From IMG/VR virus record IMGVR_UViG_651053023_000011, positions 1 through 41,897 of that record: a stretch of 41,897 bases of DNA; one strand, given 5' to 3'. Of the stretch, positions 9,395-21,701 are shown one piece after another; position 1 is the first letter of the stretch, and each line of letters opens with the position of its first letter. This stretch comes from a virus (lineage: Duplodnaviria > Heunggongvirae > Uroviricota > Caudoviricetes). The position numbers were made by a program, and so were the translations under genes. A model generated the notes under the pieces. The model ran no database searches. It worked only from the letters and a program-made list of their open reading frames with translations, and was not told where the DNA came from.

Positions 9395-9877
9395 TTAATC
9401 ATCACTAATATCTTTCATATTCAATTTGCAATTTTCGTAGGTCACTCCAGACTCGCCATTAACATTAACTCCAGCTCTGATATTCCCGTTTTCTTTTACA
9501 TCTACAAAAAACTGGCCTCTTGGCATCTTGAACACAAATGTAAAACCAACGGTATCTGAATCAAAATCATCATCTTTATATATTGGGATCAGATGTGTCA
9601 TCGTCGCTGGTGATGCATTGTTTGCAAAATCAAATACACCTATACTTTTGCCGAATTCATAAGAAGCTTTTCTCAATATAATCGCACCGCTGGCAGAAGG
9701 GGATGGGCACGATATCCTCAGTTGTCTGAATCCATCTGTATCCAAGTCAACATCATTATATGCAGATGCTTTAACGTTATTAACAAATCGTGAAGCAATC
9801 TCCGCATTTGTTAGTGTTTTCGCCTGAGCACAGCAAGAGGTTAATATTGCAACTGTCATTAAAAATGGCTTTATCAC
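9395..9877 (-). CDS. secreted protein of unknown function (moron in tail operon)
   Basis: 160-aa ORF with N-terminal signal peptide (MIKPFLMTVAILTSCCAQA/K); GTG start with GGAG upstream; visibly AT-rich relative to flanks; own terminator. Confidence 0.6.
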   Translation of the reverse strand: MIKPFLMTVAILTSCCAQAKTLTNAEIASRFVNNVKASAYNDVDLDTDGFRQLRISCPSPSASGAIILRKASYEFGKSIGVFDFANNASPATMTHLIPIYKDDDFDSDTVGFTFVFKMPRGQFFVDVKENGNIRAGVNVNGESGVTYENCKLNMKDISDD

Positions 9878-9944: not shown

Positions 9945-11894
9945 TCACCTTTTAAATGGAGAATACCCAACGTCATGGGTGATTTTCATAAAGGGATCGC
10001 CTGTTTTCGGCAAATCGATGACACGCATTCCCGGCGGCGCGTTGTCAAACGTCACCTTAAGTTCGCTGCGGGTTGCCGGTGACGATGAAAGGCTTAACAG
10101 TTGATTCCTTTCCAGTGATACATTCGGGATGTAGCGTTTATCTGGAGATAAATACCCATCACCACGTGGCATCTGCCATCCGGTCATGTCATAGACAAAA
10201 TCATGGAACTGTTTGCCCCACTCGTCGAACTTATCATTCAGACCAAATCCACTATTCAGTGCATCAGCCACAAAATTTTTAACAAGCCAGGGATGTTCTT
10301 TTTCAAACTCCTGCGCCATCATGCCCAGTTCAAGCAATCCACCAATCAGACTGATCTTACCAAGCCCCTTTAATTTCAGCGCCGTTTTTCCTGCCGCCGT
10401 TGTCCATTGATTCTGGGCGACTGTTGCTGCACGAATGGCTGCCACCGCTTTCACACCAATATACAGGGCAGAAACCGTTGCTATTGTTTTTACTGCCTGT
10501 TCCCATCCCCCCATTGCCCTGACAACCTGATCAACCTCCTGCCAGACTTTTTTCACAACCGGCCCGACCGTTTCCCAGTTGTCAATAATGAGATACGCCC
10601 CCGCTACCAGTAACGTAATGAGTCCCTTTGCCGGTGTCATATTCATCACGCTACCCATGATTTTTGTTATGCGTGTCAATGTGCCAATCGCCACGCCCAT
10701 CGTCAGTAATGCCGCACCAGTTTTCGCGATGGTTTTTACGACATCAGGATTTTCTCTGACAAACGTGCGCACTTCTTCCAGAAAAGGCTTCATCTCTTTT
10801 ATGCCTTCATTGATTGAAGGCAGGAAGGTTTCCCCCAACGTGGAAGAAATCGCATTGATCTGGTTCTGCAGCAGCAACAACTGATTTTCCGTCGTCGCGG
10901 CACGGGCGGCATATTCTTTCTGCATTGAGCCGCCATACTGCTGCGCATCCGCCACACGATTAAAATTGGTTCGCAACAAATCCAGATTCGTGAGCAGCGG
11001 CGCAATGGCTCCCAGAGACTCCTTCCCGAACAGCGCATTAAGCACAGCAGCCTGTTTTTCTTTCGGCACTTTCGCCAGAGAATCCAGTACGTGCAGCATG
11101 GCCCCACGGGCGTCTTTCTGCATATCCGCCGCCAGTTTTTTCGGGTCAATGCGCAACAGGCGAAGCGCTTTTTTCTGCGATTTGGTGGCAGAATTCCCCG
11201 CTGTCAGCGACAGCATAAAATTCTTTATCCCCGTCGCTGCAATTTCTGATTCCACCCCCATTCCGGCAATGGTTGCCCCCATTGCGGCAATCTCTCCGGA
11301 GGCCACACCCGCAACACTGCCTAAAGGGCCAATACGGGTCACAACATCAGAAATCTTTTTCGCACTTGCAGGACCAGTATTGCCAAGATAGTTAATCTTG
11401 TCCGCAAGTCCTGCCACTTCTCCCTGTGTCAGCTTAAAGGCTGTGCGCCACTGTGCCATCATCTGACCGGATTCTTCCGCCGTGGTGTCAAAGGCCACCC
11501 CCATCTTCACGGCGTCGTCAGTAAACTGCATCAGCTCGTCACGGGCGATGCCAGCCTGACCACCCGCCGCCACGATTTCGGCGATACCTTCCGCCGACAT
11601 GGGCAGTTCTGTTGACAGGTCGCGCACCTGTTCCGTCATTGCCTTAAACGCTTCCGGCGTATCCAGACCATCCACCACTTTCCGGACATCCGCCATTTTT
11701 GATTCAAGGGCAATGGCAGATTTGACCGGGAGCGCCAGCGCCCCCAGTACTGCGGTTCCGGCACCCGCTGCGCCCAGAGACAGGCTGGCAAACTCCTTTT
11801 TAAAGCCTTTCAGCTGGCGCTGCATCCCCTTCAGCGGTGCCGACACCTTATCCACGGCAGTGATGATCGCCTTCAGCTGAAAACTGTCAGCCAT
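9945..11894 (-). CDS. tail tape measure protein
   Basis: 649-aa ORF, Ala/Gly-rich with predicted coiled regions, downstream of chaperone pair. Confidence 0.85.
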   Translation of the reverse strand: MADSFQLKAIITAVDKVSAPLKGMQRQLKGFKKEFASLSLGAAGAGTAVLGALALPVKSAIALESKMADVRKVVDGLDTPEAFKAMTEQVRDLSTELPMSAEGIAEIVAAGGQAGIARDELMQFTDDAVKMGVAFDTTAEESGQMMAQWRTAFKLTQGEVAGLADKINYLGNTGPASAKKISDVVTRIGPLGSVAGVASGEIAAMGATIAGMGVESEIAATGIKNFMLSLTAGNSATKSQKKALRLLRIDPKKLAADMQKDARGAMLHVLDSLAKVPKEKQAAVLNALFGKESLGAIAPLLTNLDLLRTNFNRVADAQQYGGSMQKEYAARAATTENQLLLLQNQINAISSTLGETFLPSINEGIKEMKPFLEEVRTFVRENPDVVKTIAKTGAALLTMGVAIGTLTRITKIMGSVMNMTPAKGLITLLVAGAYLIIDNWETVGPVVKKVWQEVDQVVRAMGGWEQAVKTIATVSALYIGVKAVAAIRAATVAQNQWTTAAGKTALKLKGLGKISLIGGLLELGMMAQEFEKEHPWLVKNFVADALNSGFGLNDKFDEWGKQFHDFVYDMTGWQMPRGDGYLSPDKRYIPNVSLERNQLLSLSSSPATRSELKVTFDNAPPGMRVIDLPKTGDPFMKITHDVGYSPFKR

Positions 11895-12308
11895 GCTTCA
11901 TCTCCTCGTTAATGCGGACGGCCTCGGCTTCCAGTTCTGTAAACTGCGAAATAGCCACCCGTCGCAGCTCCAGTGGATTCAGTTTCCAGAACCAGGCAAC
12001 ATTGTAGAGTCGTTTCCGGAGGTGCTTCCCGTCTCCGACTGGGTAAAAAAACGCAGGATCTGCATGCTGGTCTTAAAAATATCCAGTTTTGCCATCTGCG
12101 CCGCCGATGAACGCGGGATCCCCGCCAGCAGCGGGATATATTTCAGTGCCACCTGGCTGTCCAGTTTAATACTGCCCTCACCGGAAATAATGAAAGGAAA
12201 ACCCAGGGCCTCGATTTCGTCATACGTGGGTTCACGCAACTCCAGCACATGCAGCGTTTCGTTATGCGCTGTCACCGGTTTTTTTAAAACAATTTCTGTC
12301 ACGCTCAT
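11887..12308 (-). CDS. tail assembly chaperone, -1 frameshift-extended form (GT-like)
   Basis: -1 frame is open from the T7 run (~12045-12051 on + strand as A7) for ~45 codons and ends overlapping the tape measure start codon. Confidence 0.45.
11979..12308 (-). CDS. tail assembly chaperone (G-like, short form)
   Basis: 109-aa ORF between tube and tape measure genes; contains U7 slippery run near its 3' end. Confidence 0.65.
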   Translation of the reverse strand: MSVTEIVLKKPVTAHNETLHVLELREPTYDEIEALGFPFIISGEGSIKLDSQVALKYIPLLAGIPRSSAAQMAKLDIFKTSMQILRFFTQSETGSTSGNDSTMLPGSGN

Positions 12309-12664
12309 TACTGATATCCTCCCTCTTCGCCGTGGAATTCAAGATCTGCCGTACCTTCTTCGGCATTATGGTTTGCTTCGCCATGCAGCCAGGCCGCCGA
12401 AAGCACATACACCATGCCGTTTGCCAGCTCGGCAGTAATCGTCATCTGGTCTGAGGCGGTAATTTTGTCGACCGGAAAATTTTTGGGCACTTTAAACGTG
12501 CCCTTAACGTAAGGTGACCGCCAGGTCTCCTTGTAATCCACATCACCAGCCATGCCGACGACATCATCCCGGACATTGGTGTTCATCGGCACTTCAATGC
12601 CACCTGTCAGCGATAACTGCTGACCATCCACTTTAAAAAAACAGGTTCCGGCGATCTTTGCCAT
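12308..12664 (-). CDS. tail tube protein (Mu gp40 / M-like)
   Basis: 118-aa ORF immediately after sheath gene with ATGA overlap. Confidence 0.8.
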   Translation of the reverse strand: MAKIAGTCFFKVDGQQLSLTGGIEVPMNTNVRDDVVGMAGDVDYKETWRSPYVKGTFKVPKNFPVDKITASDQMTITAELANGMVYVLSAAWLHGEANHNAEEGTADLEFHGEEGGYQ

Positions 12665-19461: not shown

Positions 19462-21219
19462 TTAAAGCGAGCGAATACCAACGCTGACCAGATGCTCAGA
19501 CAGATCCGGCTCCGGTTCACCGCCATTGACCAGCATCCGGCTCATTGCTGTAAACATCGCCACAGGGCCGTCGATTTTGGCTTCCGGCGTGGATTTATTC
19601 GGGAAGATATTGTTGTTTTTGTCCGGTTTCACCGTAACGTTAGACATCATCCAGTTCATGACCGGGTGATTGCTGTGGTGGAAACGTCCGGCATAGACCA
19701 GTGATTCCGTTTCCTTCATGGCCTCTGACAGATTGCGGACCGTCTGCGGAACTTCCACCAGCGGTATACCTTCTTCAGCCAGCGCCAGACTGAACTGCAT
19801 TGCGCTCCACGGGTCAAATCCCAGTTCCCTCAGGTTTTCACCGCCAATCCATTCCAGCAGGTCACTTTTTATCTGAGTATGATCGATAACATCACCATCC
19901 GTCAGGATGAGCTTATCCATCTCCGCCCACTTCCGGTAAAGTTCTGCCTGCTGCCGTGAGCATCGTTCCAGCCGTCCTTCCGGAAGCCAGAATTTAAAAT
20001 CGGCATGAACATGCCCGTTATCCGTTCGCCAGAGTTTTGCCGCCGCACAGATATCAATCTTATGAGCAAGGTCGACGCCGACCCACATGGGATATGTTTT
20101 CAGCTCATGCTGTGGAGCGATGTATTCACACTTCTCCCACTTAATCATATCCATCCAGGCAGACTCGGCAGTGACCCACACATTCATGTGTTTGGTAAAA
20201 AAATTCACCCGCGCTGAAACCTGTTCCTTCGCTTTTTTCGCCAGACGACGCAGATCATCCCAGCGTTTACAGATGCCCAGGCCCGGATTCGCTTTCTGCC
20301 AGACCGTTTCATCAAACGGATCATCTCCCTCATCGAGCGTGTAAATAATCGCAAAGTAGGAGTCGTCTTTTACCGCGCCCTCCACGTCGCTGTTATAGCC
20401 TCGCAATACCTTGATGGCGTAATCGCGTTGCTCGTAACAAATCCCTTCCTTGTTAAAGCCCGCCGTGGTGATACCAAATAACAGGGACTGCAGACGGGCA
20501 CCGGTTGCCGTTTCCAGAACGTCCCACACGTCGCGGGTTTTATGTGCATGCAGCTCATCAATAATGGCGCAGTGGATGTTCAGACCGTCCAGGTTGTTTG
20601 CATCCGAGGAAAGCGGTTCAAATTTTGATGCGCTCTGCTCCTGGTAAATCGCCAGCTTGTTGAAATCAAACAACCGCCCGAGTGTCGACCGGGCTTTCCT
20701 GACCATATTTTTGGCGTCTTCAAACACAATTCTGGCCTGGTCACGCGTGGTTGCGGCTGAATACACCTCAGCACCGCCTTCACCATCTGCCCCCGTCATA
20801 TACAGGCCGATACCCGATGACAGGGTTGATTTTGCGTTTTTACGGGCGACTTCGTTGTACGCCGTCCGGAACCGGCGCACCATCACCGGACGTCCGCTGC
20901 CATCGCTGCGCATGACAACTTCCCCGGTCTCTTCATTGACCAGCGGAATGACAAAACCAAAAATATTAATGAGGATAAATACATGCCAGTCCATCAGTTC
21001 AATGGGCTGGCCTGCCAGCGCCCCTTTTACATGGGGCACAAATTTGTAGAAATTCAGGATGTGCTGCGCACGGGGTTCACTGAAATAAATCCCCCGCTCT
21101 TCGCCGTACTTCAGATCATCAAGAAAACGCTGGCAGGCCAGACGGACAAATTCGCCAGCGACAATTTCTCCTGCAACAACACGTTCGGCGTAGCGGATCC
21201 CGTCAGCCACTTTTGCCAT
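19462..21219 (-). CDS. terminase large subunit
   Basis: 585-aa ORF; ATPase and nuclease regions typical of large terminases; ATGA overlap with small subunit. Confidence 0.9.
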
Positions 21220-21701
21220 CAGTCTCTCGCTTTTAAAAGTTCCGCCAGCGGATCAACATCATCCGGTCCGGCGGTATTTACTTTCGCCCGGCTTGCCGGT
21301 GACATACCAAACTCTGCAAGCATCGCCCGGATCCGCTTCCAGGCATCCGCTTTCATCGCAGCAGCCGGGTGTGCCTTAATCAGCACATCACCGTTCTGCG
21401 TTTCCGTGCGGTAGGTATAACCCTCAGCATCAAGTGTTTCGCAGTGATGCCGGTATTCGGTGTAGGCTTCCACCAGTAACTCGAGTGCACGCGCATCAAG
21501 CTGAGAAATGATCCCTTCCGCATTCAGTTCTTCCGCCATTCGCCTGAACCAGTACTTCCCCTGCGCCCCTAAATGTTGCGGAATTTTAGGGAGACCTTTT
21601 TCATCCTTTTTAGCGGCTTTTTTGGGGTCTTTAACGGGGCGCTTTGAGGGGTTGCCTCGTATCAAATGCAGGCGTGGCGGGGTTTTCGGGGGTCCTGACA
21701 T
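21219..21701 (-). CDS. terminase small subunit (P27-type)
   Basis: 160-aa ORF, basic N-terminus, directly upstream of large terminase. Confidence 0.75.
   Translation of the reverse strand: MSGPPKTPPRLHLIRGNPSKRPVKDPKKAAKKDEKGLPKIPQHLGAQGKYWFRRMAEELNAEGIISQLDARALELLVEAYTEYRHHCETLDAEGYTYRTETQNGDVLIKAHPAAAMKADAWKRIRAMLAEFGMSPASRAKVNTAGPDDVDPLAELLKARD

What the first reader, a model, noticed from the sequence alone, without database searches (positions are those of the whole stretch)
11887..12308. Programmed -1 frameshift site (U7) producing an extended tail assembly chaperone
The chaperone ORF contains a T7 run (A7 on the + strand near 12045-12051) forming a slippery heptamer. The -1 frame is open from there for ~45 codons and stops overlapping the tape measure start codon, the conserved G/GT arrangement of long-tailed phages.
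Basis: partly seen in the sequence, partly recalled or inferred. Interest (0 to 1): 0.4.

Follow-up and report, generated by a model that had tools for sequence, protein, structure and literature searches.

The report
Tail chaperone frameshift site, unannotated
This is an ordinary but unannotated example of the well-known trick by which long-tailed phages make two versions of a tail-assembly helper protein from one gene, by letting a few ribosomes slip back one base on a run of seven U's.

Summary
The window is a phiP27-like (Stx2e phage) prophage. On its minus strand the order is sheath, tube, a 109-aa PF10109 tail assembly chaperone (12308-11979), then tape measure (11894-9945).

A T7 run at 12051-12045 lies in phase as CGU UUU UUU ACC, a perfect U_UUU_UUU heptamer. 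From it the -1 frame stays open for 52 codons (the finder said ~45). It ends at TGA 11889-11887, inside ATGGCTGA with the tape-measure start. The fusion would be 140 aa.

Comparative evidence decides the case:
- All 59 distinct relatives (53-100% protein identity) keep T7 at the same codon phase.
- The codon before it changes amino acid (R/N/G/S) but always ends in T.
- The -1 ORF is 51-53 codons and ends across the tape-measure start in all but a few relatives.
- Beyond the chaperone's stop, 70% of single-base codon differences are synonymous in the -1 frame, against 15% and 5% in the other frames.
- No relative has a start codon that could express the conserved -1 peptide on its own.
- More distant phages (SfV, AH07, EPP-1) use T_TTT_TTC at the same spot.

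No stimulatory RNA structure is conserved. The layout matches P2 E/E+E'. None of the eight annotated records checked marks the frameshift. It is a new member of a known kind, of low interest.

The parts
11979..12308 (-). Tail assembly chaperone gene, zero-frame product 'G': 109 aa, 11.8 kDa, pI 5.3
   Evidence: ORF. Pfam PF10109 Phage_TAC_7, 31.8 bits against a cutoff of 25. phrog_166 'tail protein', E = 7e-28. RefSeq/PGAP name: 'phage tail assembly protein'. Mass and pI.
12045..12051 (-). Slippery heptamer U_UUU_UUU (zero frame CGU UUU UUU ACC), the proposed site of the tandem -1 slip of two tRNA-Phe
   Evidence: Phase shown. T7 is at the same phase in 59 of 59 distinct relatives. In 51 of 51 distinct gene sequences the preceding codon is CGT, AAT, GGT or AGT, always ending in T, and both Phe codons are TTT. 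Sharma et al. 2014 (PMC4066793) place U_UU.U_UU.U in the efficient H_HH.U_UU.Y class in E. coli.
11887..12045 (-). -1 frame extension 'T': 52 codons (YPVGDGKHLRKRLYNVAWFWKLNPLELRRVAISQFTELEAEAVRINEEMKHG) plus the TGA stop at 11889-11887
   Evidence: Translation. In 57 of 59 distinct relatives the extension is 51-53 codons and its peptide is conserved. Nucleotide diversity by codon position is 0.20/0.12/0.44 beyond the G stop. 70.5% of single-base codon differences are synonymous in this frame, against 15% and 5% in the other two. It matches phrog_32181, E = 6e-6. No usable start codon in 0 of 58 relatives.
11887..12308 (-). Whole region encoding the predicted frameshift fusion 'GT': 140 aa, 16.0 kDa, pI 8.0. 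Diagnostic tryptic junction peptide: FFYPVGDGK
   Evidence: Database proteins of 131-158 aa cover 96-100% of the conceptual fusion. They arise from natural or assembly indels that join the two frames.
9945..11894 (-). Tape measure protein gene (649 aa). Its ATG (11894-11892) overlaps the -1 stop as ATGGCTGA. The GAGGAG Shine-Dalgarno sequence for it lies within the last codons of T
   Evidence: PF10145, E = 6e-44. Sequence. The overlap of 5 or 8 nt is conserved in all but a few relatives.
12308..12664 (-). Tail tube gene (118 aa), immediately upstream; the presumed binding partner of the T extension
   Evidence: PF10618 Tail_tube, E = 8.5e-34. The binding role is inferred from lambda gpGT-gpV, as summarised in PMC5009743.
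12664..14160 (-). Tail sheath gene (498 aa); context showing that this is a contractile, Mu-like tail module
   Evidence: PF04984, PF17482 and PF17481. 36% identity to Mu gpL over its full length.

Best explanation
The gene at 12308-11979 encodes the tail assembly chaperone of a phiP27-like myovirus prophage. Most ribosomes read it in frame and make the 109-aa protein G.

A minority slip when the two UUU codons of CGU-UUU-UUU occupy the P and A sites. Both tRNA-Phe move back one base and re-pair perfectly with UUU-UUU. Translation then continues in the -1 frame (UAC CCA GUC ...) for 52 codons. It ends at a UGA that overlaps the tape-measure AUG, giving the 140-aa fusion GT.

The following is inferred by analogy with lambda G/GT and P2 E/E+E' and is not shown here. 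The shared N-terminal domain coats the tape measure protein. The basic, probably helical T extension recruits the tube protein, so that the tube polymerises around the tape measure. The slip frequency fixes the G:GT ratio. Neither protein stays in the virion.

No conserved RNA stimulator is present, so the rate is expected to be low, a few per cent.

Shown here: the site, its phase, its nucleotide-level conservation, the coding nature of the -1 frame, and the lack of an independent start codon. Inferred: that slippage happens on the ribosome, the ratio, and the protein functions.
For: 1. Identity and position. PF10109 hit above threshold, and the gene order is sheath, tube, chaperone, tape measure. 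P2 E+E' and the conceptual SfV fusion score above threshold in the same Pfam family. Mu gp41 falls just below it at 24.7 bits against 25.

2. Slip site. U_UUU_UUU is in phase. It is invariant in 59 distinct relatives down to 53% protein identity. The preceding codon varies among Arg, Asn, Gly and Ser but is always NNT, and Phe-Phe is always TTT TTT in 51 of 51 sequences. Only 10 of 107 third-codon positions in the gene are invariant. Two other in-phase A7/T7 runs in the same operon are not conserved, which gives internal negative controls.

3. The -1 ORF. It is 51-53 codons in 57 of 59 relatives, and its stop overlaps the tape-measure start by 5 or 8 nt in all but a few. Codon-position diversity is 0.20/0.12/0.44. 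The synonymous fraction is 0.705, against 0.151 and 0.048 in the other frames, and stop codons number 0, 60 and 97.

4. No independent expression. None of 58 relatives has ATG, GTG or TTG in the -1 frame before the conserved core, and 14 of them have none at all.

5. Distant relatives. Yersinia YeP2 keeps T7. SfV, Pantoea AH07 and Edwardsiella EPP-1 have T_TTT_TTC at the same Phe-Phe, with a homologous 53-codon -1 peptide ending across the tape-measure start. tblastn finds the two-frame pattern in 19 phage records.

6. Same architecture as the experimentally established P2 E/E+E'. P2 has 91/142 aa, T_TTT_TTG and an ATGAGTAA overlap (PMC3091744).

7. Sharma et al. 2014 report that U_UU.U_UU.U is an efficient -1 motif in E. 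coli, shifts at more than 0.1% without a stimulator, and is under-represented in E. coli genes.
Against: There is no experimental evidence for the fusion protein in this phage group.

No conserved downstream hairpin or pseudoknot is found: RNAalifold predicts 0 pairs and single-sequence z-scores are -0.7 and -1.4. No upstream Shine-Dalgarno-like element is visible and nothing matches Rfam. The efficiency therefore cannot be predicted.

The extension is not demonstrably homologous to P2 E' (PF06528): there is no hmmscan hit, and hhalign gives P of about 0.007 with a probability of 5-6%. Its AlphaFold model has low confidence (pLDDT 40-48).

Sequence alone cannot separate ribosomal slippage from RNA-polymerase slippage on the same run.

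In the most distant relative, Paraburkholderia IPK, the U-run is absent (TTC TTC). The solution is therefore not universal across the wider family.
Confidence: 0.85

Rival explanations
1. The same GT protein is made, but by transcriptional slippage. RNA polymerase stutters on the T7 tract and adds one U (U8), and ordinary in-frame translation of that minority mRNA gives R-F-F-Y-P..., identical to the product of a ribosomal frameshift.
For: The site is a homopolymer, and homopolymeric A/T runs are the known substrates of polymerase slippage. Sharma et al. suggest slippage as one reason why U7 and A7 are avoided in all three frames of E. coli genes. The protein product would be indistinguishable. 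Genomic length variants of this very run exist in databases (T7 to T5 in P0006 and P0010), which shows that the tract is slippage-prone at least during DNA replication or sequencing.
Against: Productive bacterial transcriptional slippage is described for runs of about 9 A/T (PMC5009743). Here the run is 7, and it is only 6 in the SfV, AH07 and EPP-1 subgroup (TTTTTTC) and in P2 (TTTTTTG). What is conserved across these groups is an in-phase X_XXY_YYZ heptamer rather than run length. P2's site is reported in the literature as translational (PMC3091744, citing Christie et al. 2002).
Confidence: 0.09
2. There is no recoding. The open -1 frame and the T7 run are coincidental, and only the 109-aa protein is made.
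For: Within the single window the pattern is not rare. There are 30 T7/A7 runs, 5.2% of codon positions have a -1 frame open for at least 52 codons, and two other in-phase homopolymer heptamers lie nearby. Public annotations list only the 109-aa protein.
Against: The run is conserved at the nucleotide level despite amino-acid change in the preceding codon. The -1 frame shows a strong purifying-selection signature (70% synonymous, against 15% and 5%; 0 stops, against 60 and 97). The peptide is conserved down to 24-40% identity in distant phages. The -1 stop is fixed on the tape-measure start.
Confidence: 0.02
3. The -1 ORF is a separate small gene ('T') with its own start codon, as gene callers have sometimes annotated it; PHROG 32181 and 11318 are families of 63-68-aa stand-alone ORFs.
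For: The extension matches phrog_32181 and phrog_11318, which are built from independently called small ORFs. In some relatives the -1 frame is open for 37-71 codons upstream of the slip site.
Against: None of 58 relatives has ATG, GTG or TTG in the -1 frame at or before the conserved core. In this window the only internal candidate is a GTG at extension codon 30, which would omit the most conserved segment (LRKRLYNVAWFWKLNPLELRR). 14 relatives have no start codon anywhere in the ORF.
Confidence: 0.01
4. It is a sequencing error or a pseudogene. The true gene is one continuous ORF (T8 or T5), and the apparent frameshift is an assembly artefact or an inactivating mutation in a decaying prophage.
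For: Some database entries do encode continuous fusions (P0001-P0011).
Against: T7 is found in 59 distinct sequences from independent genomes, phage isolates and metagenomes, including complete reference genomes. The continuous-fusion entries join the frames at different places and by different indels (+G 27 nt downstream, T7 to T5, or detours through the third frame). This is what sporadic mutations or errors give, not an ancestral state.
Confidence: 0.01

Closest known systems
Bacteriophage P2 E / E+E' (programmed -1 frameshift at T_TTT_TTG; Christie et al. 2002; RefSeq NC_001895 annotates the site)
   Same: Both are in a contractile-tail phage, and the gene lies directly before the tape measure gene. 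The N-terminal domain is in the same Pfam family: PF10109, 47.5 bits for P2 and 31.8 bits here. Both use a -1 shift on a U-run heptamer near the 3' end. The sizes are alike (91/142 aa against 109/140 aa). In both, the stop of the shifted frame overlaps the tape-measure ATG by 8 nt (ATGAGTAA against ATGGCTGA). Neither has a downstream stimulatory hairpin (PMC3091744; here).
   Different: The heptamer is U_UUU_UUU here and U_UUU_UUG in P2. BLAST finds no similarity between the two proteins. P2's E' is PF06528, whereas the extension here does not reach significance against it. The neighbouring tail genes here are Mu-type, not P2-type.
Phage lambda G / GT (the founding case; Levin, Hendrix & Casjens 1993; Xu, Hendrix & Duda 2004, 2013, 2014)
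   Same: The logic is the same: a chaperone gene between the major tail gene and the tape measure gene, a low-level -1 slip near its 3' end, and a fusion that ends next to the tape-measure start. The G part binds the tape measure and the T part binds the tube subunit, and the ratio is critical (PMC5009743).
   Different: Lambda is a siphovirus, and its heptamer is G_GGA_AAG (from my own knowledge). Its T part is much longer. There is no detectable sequence relationship, and the Pfam family is different.
Phage Mu gp41 (PF23746) and its downstream frame
   Same: The tail module is the closest overall: the sheath is 36% identical to Mu gpL, the DNA-circulation N-terminus is 37% identical to Mu gp43, and the gene order is the same. 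Mu gp41 scores 24.7 bits on PF10109, just under the cutoff.
   Different: In Mu the open alternative frame is +1/-2, not -1. Xu et al. are cited as proposing a -2 shift (PMC2628397). Mu gp41 is 144 aa, belongs to PF23746, and shows no BLAST similarity to this protein.
Chaperone genes of the SfV / SfI / SfII / Pantoea AH07 / Edwardsiella EPP-1 group, and of ST64B / SfIV / 118970_sal3 / YeP1-3
   Same: They are true homologues of both parts. The position and phase are the same, and the -1 peptide has the F/Y-W-x-x-N-P ... A-x-R-I motif and ends across the tape-measure start.
   Different: The SfV subgroup uses T_TTT_TTC, has an 89-aa G with only a 3-residue zero-frame tail, and its extension is only 27-31% identical. 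None of the six records of this group opened in detail annotates a frameshift.

Membership tests
G/GT-type tail assembly chaperone with programmed frameshift (Xu, Hendrix & Duda 2004) | The gene lies between the major tail (tube) gene and the tape measure gene | tested here: met
   Tube 12664-12308, chaperone 12308-11979, tape measure 11894-9945, each identified by Pfam.
G/GT-type tail assembly chaperone with programmed frameshift (Xu, Hendrix & Duda 2004) | There is a second ORF that overlaps the 3' end of the first in another frame, has no start of its own, and ends near the tape-measure start | tested here: met
   The -1 ORF is 52 codons, and its stop sits within ATGGCTGA. No relative has a usable start codon, 0 of 58. 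The overlap with the tape-measure start is conserved in all but a few relatives.
G/GT-type tail assembly chaperone with programmed frameshift (Xu, Hendrix & Duda 2004) | A slippery sequence in the correct phase lies within the overlap | tested here: met
   U_UUU_UUU at 12051-12045. It is invariant in 59 relatives and held at the nucleotide level. Distant relatives have U_UUU_UUC.
G/GT-type tail assembly chaperone with programmed frameshift (Xu, Hendrix & Duda 2004) | The second frame is conserved as protein-coding sequence among relatives | tested here: met
   Codon-position diversity is 0.20/0.12/0.44. The synonymous fraction is 0.705, against 0.151 and 0.048. Peptide alignment.
G/GT-type tail assembly chaperone with programmed frameshift (Xu, Hendrix & Duda 2004) | Both products are made in a fixed ratio, both are needed for tail assembly, and both are absent from virions | not testable with these tools
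   This needs protein detection and genetics. No paper on this phage group was found.
Pfam PF10109 Phage_TAC_7 (chaperones E / 41 / 14) | An HMM match above the gathering threshold | tested here: met
   31.8 bits against a cutoff of 25, residues 6-75. P2 E+E' scores 47.5 bits and the SfV homologue 56.7 bits.
Pfam PF06528 Phage_P2_GpE (the frameshifted C-terminus E' of P2) | The extension matches the E' family | tested here: inconclusive
   No hmmscan hit for any of 15 extension peptides at E up to 10. hhalign against P2 E', and against a 14-sequence E' profile, aligns residues 12-45 to 18-51 in a plausible register (FW..P.EL / FHWPPSEL), but with P = 0.006-0.008 and probability 5-6%.
Pfam PF23746 Gp41_Mu | An HMM match, together with a Mu-type (+1/-2) alternative frame | tested here: not met
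   Only PF10109 was reported for this protein at E up to 0.01. The frame used here is -1, whereas Mu's open frame is +1/-2. There is no tblastn similarity to the Mu region.
Transcriptional-slippage recoding sites (e.g. Thermus dnaX, Shigella mxiE) | A homopolymeric A/T run of about 9 or more | tested here: not met
   The run is 7 here, and 6 in the SfV subgroup and in P2. The run length of about 9 comes from PMC5009743. A minor contribution is not excluded.
Stimulated -1 PRF sites (dnaX / IS3 type) | A conserved downstream hairpin or pseudoknot, or an upstream SD-like element | tested here: not met
   RNAalifold predicts 0 pairs in 16 diverse sequences. Single-sequence z-scores are -0.67 and -1.42. 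No SD-like motif is visible upstream, and there is no Rfam match.

The most novel reading that the evidence does not exclude
The U7 tract may be more than a translational slip site. It could also act as a heritable switch. Natural genomes carry hard-wired fusions: T7 contracted to T5 (P0006, P0010), or a +G insertion 27 nt downstream. The +G form is a 142-aa protein seen on 661 Shigella flexneri contigs. If these are real alleles under selection rather than decay or sequencing error, some prophages or domesticated tail-like particles would run on a GT-only chaperone. That would contradict the lambda rule that a large excess of G over GT is essential.
Probability: 0.05. Interest if true: 0.45.

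Novelty: new member of a known kind. Interest (0 to 1): 0.15.

Why it matters
The main value is for annotation. The 140-aa GT product is missing from the phiP27 GenBank and RefSeq records and from the PGAP annotation of an identical E. coli prophage. It is also missing from the six other phage records of this chaperone group that were opened (YeP2, AH07, EPP-1, SfV, vB_EcoM-720R4, and IPK, which has no annotation at all). tblastn finds the same two-frame pattern in SfIV, ST64B and 118970_sal3.

A predicted essential tail-assembly protein is therefore being overlooked in a widespread group of enterobacterial prophages, including an Stx2e-converting phage. Anyone engineering these phages or tailocins must keep the T7 tract, and must not 'codon-optimise' it away.

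The family also gives a clean natural series (U7, U6C, U6G, no stimulator) for studying unstimulated tRNA-Phe slippage. It opens no new question.

Tried and rejected
- Downstream stimulatory RNA. Single-sequence folds of 85 and 196 nt gave z = -0.67 and -1.42. RNAalifold on 16 diverse relatives gave 0 pairs. The local UCGGAG...CUCCGG hairpin in this window is broken in relatives (CUCAG). Rejected.
- Rfam scan of 11700-12450 at E up to 1: nothing.
- Independent start codon for the -1 ORF: none in 58 relatives. Rejected.
- Homology of the extension to P2 E' (PF06528): hmmscan negative, hhalign weak. Left open.
- Literature. No paper was found that describes this frameshift in phiP27, ST64B, SfIV or SfV. 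Xu et al. 2004 and Christie et al. 2002 are not held in the library. I therefore could not check whether phiP27 or SfV were already in their tables.
- Other in-phase heptamers. A7 at 12285-12279 and T7 at 12641-12635 are not conserved and lead to immediate stops. They were dismissed as incidental and used as negative controls.
Full report
**What is there.** The window is 98.7% identical over this region to the Stx2e-converting phage phiP27. On the minus strand the gene order is:
- tail sheath, 14160-12664 (PF04984, PF17482, PF17481);
- tail tube, 12664-12308 (PF10618);
- a 109-aa ORF, 12308-11979;
- the tape measure gene, 11894-9945 (PF10145);
- a DNA-circulation protein, 9348-7957 (PF07157).

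The 109-aa protein scores 31.8 bits on PF10109, against a cutoff of 25. Pfam describes this family as 'Phage tail assembly chaperone proteins, E, or 41 or 14'. It also matches phrog_166. The sheath is 36% identical to Mu gpL, and the N-terminus of the DNA-circulation protein is 37% identical to Mu gp43. The module is therefore Mu-like, as the finder said.

**Check of the observation.** The T7 run is at 12051-12045, as stated. The zero-frame reading is CUG CGU UUU UUU ACC, so the run forms a perfect X_XXY_YYZ heptamer, U_UUU_UUU. After a -1 slip the next codon is UAC at 12045. The frame stays open for 52 codons, not ~45, and ends at TGA 11889-11887. That stop shares ATGGCTGA with the tape-measure ATG at 11894. 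The fusion would be 140 aa and 16.0 kDa, against 109 aa and 11.8 kDa for the in-frame product.

Taken alone, this is not statistically striking:
- the window has 30 T7/A7 runs against about 15 expected;
- 5.2% of codon positions in its long ORFs have a -1 frame open for at least 52 codons;
- two more in-phase homopolymer heptamers lie within 600 bases, A7 at 12285-12279 and T7 at 12641-12635 in the tube gene.

**Comparative test.** I collected 99 related loci from bacterial genomes and viral contigs. They gave 59 distinct sequences with 53-100% protein identity.

- Slip site. Every sequence has T7 at the same codon phase. In 51 distinct gene sequences the two Phe codons are always TTT TTT. The preceding codon changes its amino acid (Arg 24, Asn 12, Gly 11, Ser 4) yet is always CGT, AAT, GGT or AGT. 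The first U of the heptamer is thus kept independently of the protein. Only 10 of 107 third-codon positions in the gene are invariant, and three of them are these.
- Negative controls. The A7 and the tube-gene T7 are replaced by AAAAAG or TAT-TTC in relatives.
- Extent of the -1 ORF. It is 51-53 codons in 57 of the 59 sequences. Its stop overlaps the tape-measure start by 5 or 8 nt in all but a few.
- Selection beyond the chaperone's stop, where only the -1 frame could be coding. Nucleotide diversity by codon position is 0.20/0.12/0.44. 70.5% of single-base codon differences are synonymous in the -1 frame, against 15.1% and 4.8% in the other two frames. Stop codons number 0, 60 and 97 respectively.
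- Independent initiation. None of 58 relatives has ATG, GTG or TTG in the -1 frame ahead of the conserved core (LRKRLYNVAWFWKLNPLELRR), and 14 have none anywhere. The peptide can therefore only be reached from the upstream frame.

**More distant phages.** tblastn with the conceptual fusion finds the same two-piece, two-frame match in 19 phage records. These include SfIV, ST64B, 118970_sal3, YeP1-3, Pantoea AH07, Edwardsiella EPP-1 and Paraburkholderia IPK.
- YeP2 keeps T7.
- SfV, AH07 and EPP-1 have GGT TTT TTC (U_UUU_UUC) at the same Phe-Phe. Their 53-codon -1 peptide shares the F/Y-W-x-x-N-P ... A-x-R-I motif and again stops across the tape-measure ATG.
- The conserved feature is thus an in-phase heptamer of 6-7 U, not a run length.
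- In IPK, from a GC-rich host, the pair is TTC TTC, and the -1 frame opens only two codons before the chaperone's stop. A different, unidentified solution must operate there.

**Mechanism.** The best explanation is a tandem -1 slip of two tRNA-Phe on U_UUU_UUU.
- Sharma et al. 2014 place U_UU.U_UU.U in the H_HH.U_UU.Y class of most efficient E. coli heptamers. They list it among motifs that shift at more than 0.1% without any stimulator and that are under-represented in E. coli genes (PMC4066793).
- I found no stimulator. RNAalifold predicts no conserved pairs in 16 diverse sequences. Single-sequence folds are unremarkable. No upstream SD-like element is visible, and there is no Rfam match. 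The same absence is reported for P2 and its relatives (PMC3091744).
- The functional model is inferred from lambda and P2 and is not shown here. The shared G domain binds the tape measure protein, the T extension recruits the tube subunit, and the ratio is set by the slip frequency. That ratio is about 30:1 in lambda, and the frameshift efficiency is 2-3 times higher in P2 (PMC5009743).
- The extension is basic (pI 9.3, against 4.05 for the alternative zero-frame tail). It is predicted helical, but with low confidence (pLDDT 40-48). The chaperone domain is modelled at pLDDT 70-91.

**Rivals.**
- Polymerase slippage would give the identical protein and cannot be excluded by sequence. It is disfavoured by the short runs (7, and 6 in SfV-type phages and P2), against the runs of about 9 described for bacterial slippage.
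- Chance, a separate small gene, and sequencing error are each contradicted by the comparative data above. Continuous 'fusion' proteins do exist in databases (P0001-P0011). They join the frames at different points by different indels: +G 27 nt downstream in Shigella flexneri, T7 to T5 in others, and detours through the third frame. This is the signature of sporadic mutation or error, and it also confirms that the -1 peptide is recognisable.

**Comparison with known systems.** The arrangement matches P2 E/E+E' almost point for point. P2 has 91/142 aa, U_UUU_UUG, the stop within ATGAGTAA on the tape-measure start, and no hairpin. P2's N-terminal part falls in the same Pfam family. There is no BLAST-level similarity, however, and the extension cannot be shown to belong to P2's E' family PF06528. 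Mu, the closest tail module overall, differs in this respect: its gp41 is PF23746 and its open alternative frame is +1/-2 (PMC2628397).

**Novelty.** The mechanism and the family are textbook (Xu, Hendrix & Duda 2004). This specific instance is not annotated in either phiP27 record, in the PGAP annotation of an identical E. coli prophage, or in the six related phage records I opened. I found no paper describing it. I could not read Xu et al. 2004 to check its tables. I therefore rate it a new member of a known kind, with low interest. It is a sound annotation correction rather than a discovery.

Noticed in passing
window 12279-12285 (minus strand, codons 8-10 of the chaperone gene): A second in-phase slippery heptamer, A_AAA_AAA (UUA AAA AAA CCG). 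A -1 slip here would terminate after 5 codons. It is not conserved: most of the more distant relatives have CTG AAA AAG or lack the Lys-Lys pair. It is probably incidental and served as a negative control.
   Followed up: yes
window 12635-12641 (minus strand, codons 8-10 of the tail tube gene): An in-phase U_UUU_UUU heptamer (UGU UUU UUU AAA). A -1 slip would hit UAA immediately. It is present only in the closest relatives; the others have TAT TTC. Any slippage here would cost a little tube protein.
   Followed up: yes
L046 (IMG/VR UViG_2529292715_000008), and proteins P0001-P0005; the equivalent window position is about 12018: Shigella flexneri variants carry a one-base insertion (CTCCGG to CTCCGGG) 27 nt after the T7 run. 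It hard-wires the chaperone to the -1 peptide, giving a 140-142-aa protein. One such protein (P0004) is recorded on 661 contigs. Other S. flexneri genomes (L002) have the normal arrangement. This may mark a tail-defective cryptic prophage lineage.
   Followed up: partly
proteins P0006 and P0010 (database entries; homologous to window 12045-12051): Their sequences read ...RFYRLGD... and ...VFYPVGD..., with a single Phe. This implies that the genomic tract has contracted from T7 to T5, which also fuses the two frames. It is either a homopolymer sequencing error or real mutational slippage of the tract.
   Followed up: no
L107 (Paraburkholderia phage IPK, PV588664, locus 595-1100): This phage has homologous chaperone and -1 peptide sequences but no slippery run (Phe-Phe is TTC TTC). 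The -1 frame carries stops until two codons before the chaperone's stop (GAG GGC GCG TAA). How the extension is reached there, if at all, is unexplained. The record is flagged UNVERIFIED.
   Followed up: partly
window 9395-9877 (minus strand): A 160-aa ORF lies between the tape measure and DNA-circulation genes. Its N-terminus looks like a lipoprotein signal (MIKPFLMTVAILTSC...). It has no Pfam match. In phiP27 those two genes are only 15 nt apart, so this looks like an inserted moron that distinguishes this prophage from phiP27.
   Followed up: partly
window 21217-21243 (minus strand): A 160-aa ORF (21701-21219) and a 585-aa ORF (21219-19462) meet at TGATG; I take them to be the terminase small and large subunits, from size and position only. 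An in-phase U_UUA_AAA heptamer sits three codons before the 160-aa ORF's stop. A -1 slip there would fuse the two proteins. It is probably a coincidence and was not examined in relatives.
   Followed up: no
window 11894-11915 (minus strand): The tape measure gene's Shine-Dalgarno sequence (GAGGAG) lies inside the last codons of the -1 extension (AAC GAG GAG AUG AAG CAU GGC UGA). The very high conservation of the ...RINEEMKHG end may therefore reflect two constraints at once. Ribosomes terminating GT could reinitiate on the tape measure gene.
   Followed up: no
literature (PMC5581363, PMC8944631): A Burkholderia gladioli protein with the same PF10109 chaperone domain (Bg_9562) has been reported as a secreted antifungal effector. 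This is an unexpected claimed role for a member of this family.
   Followed up: no
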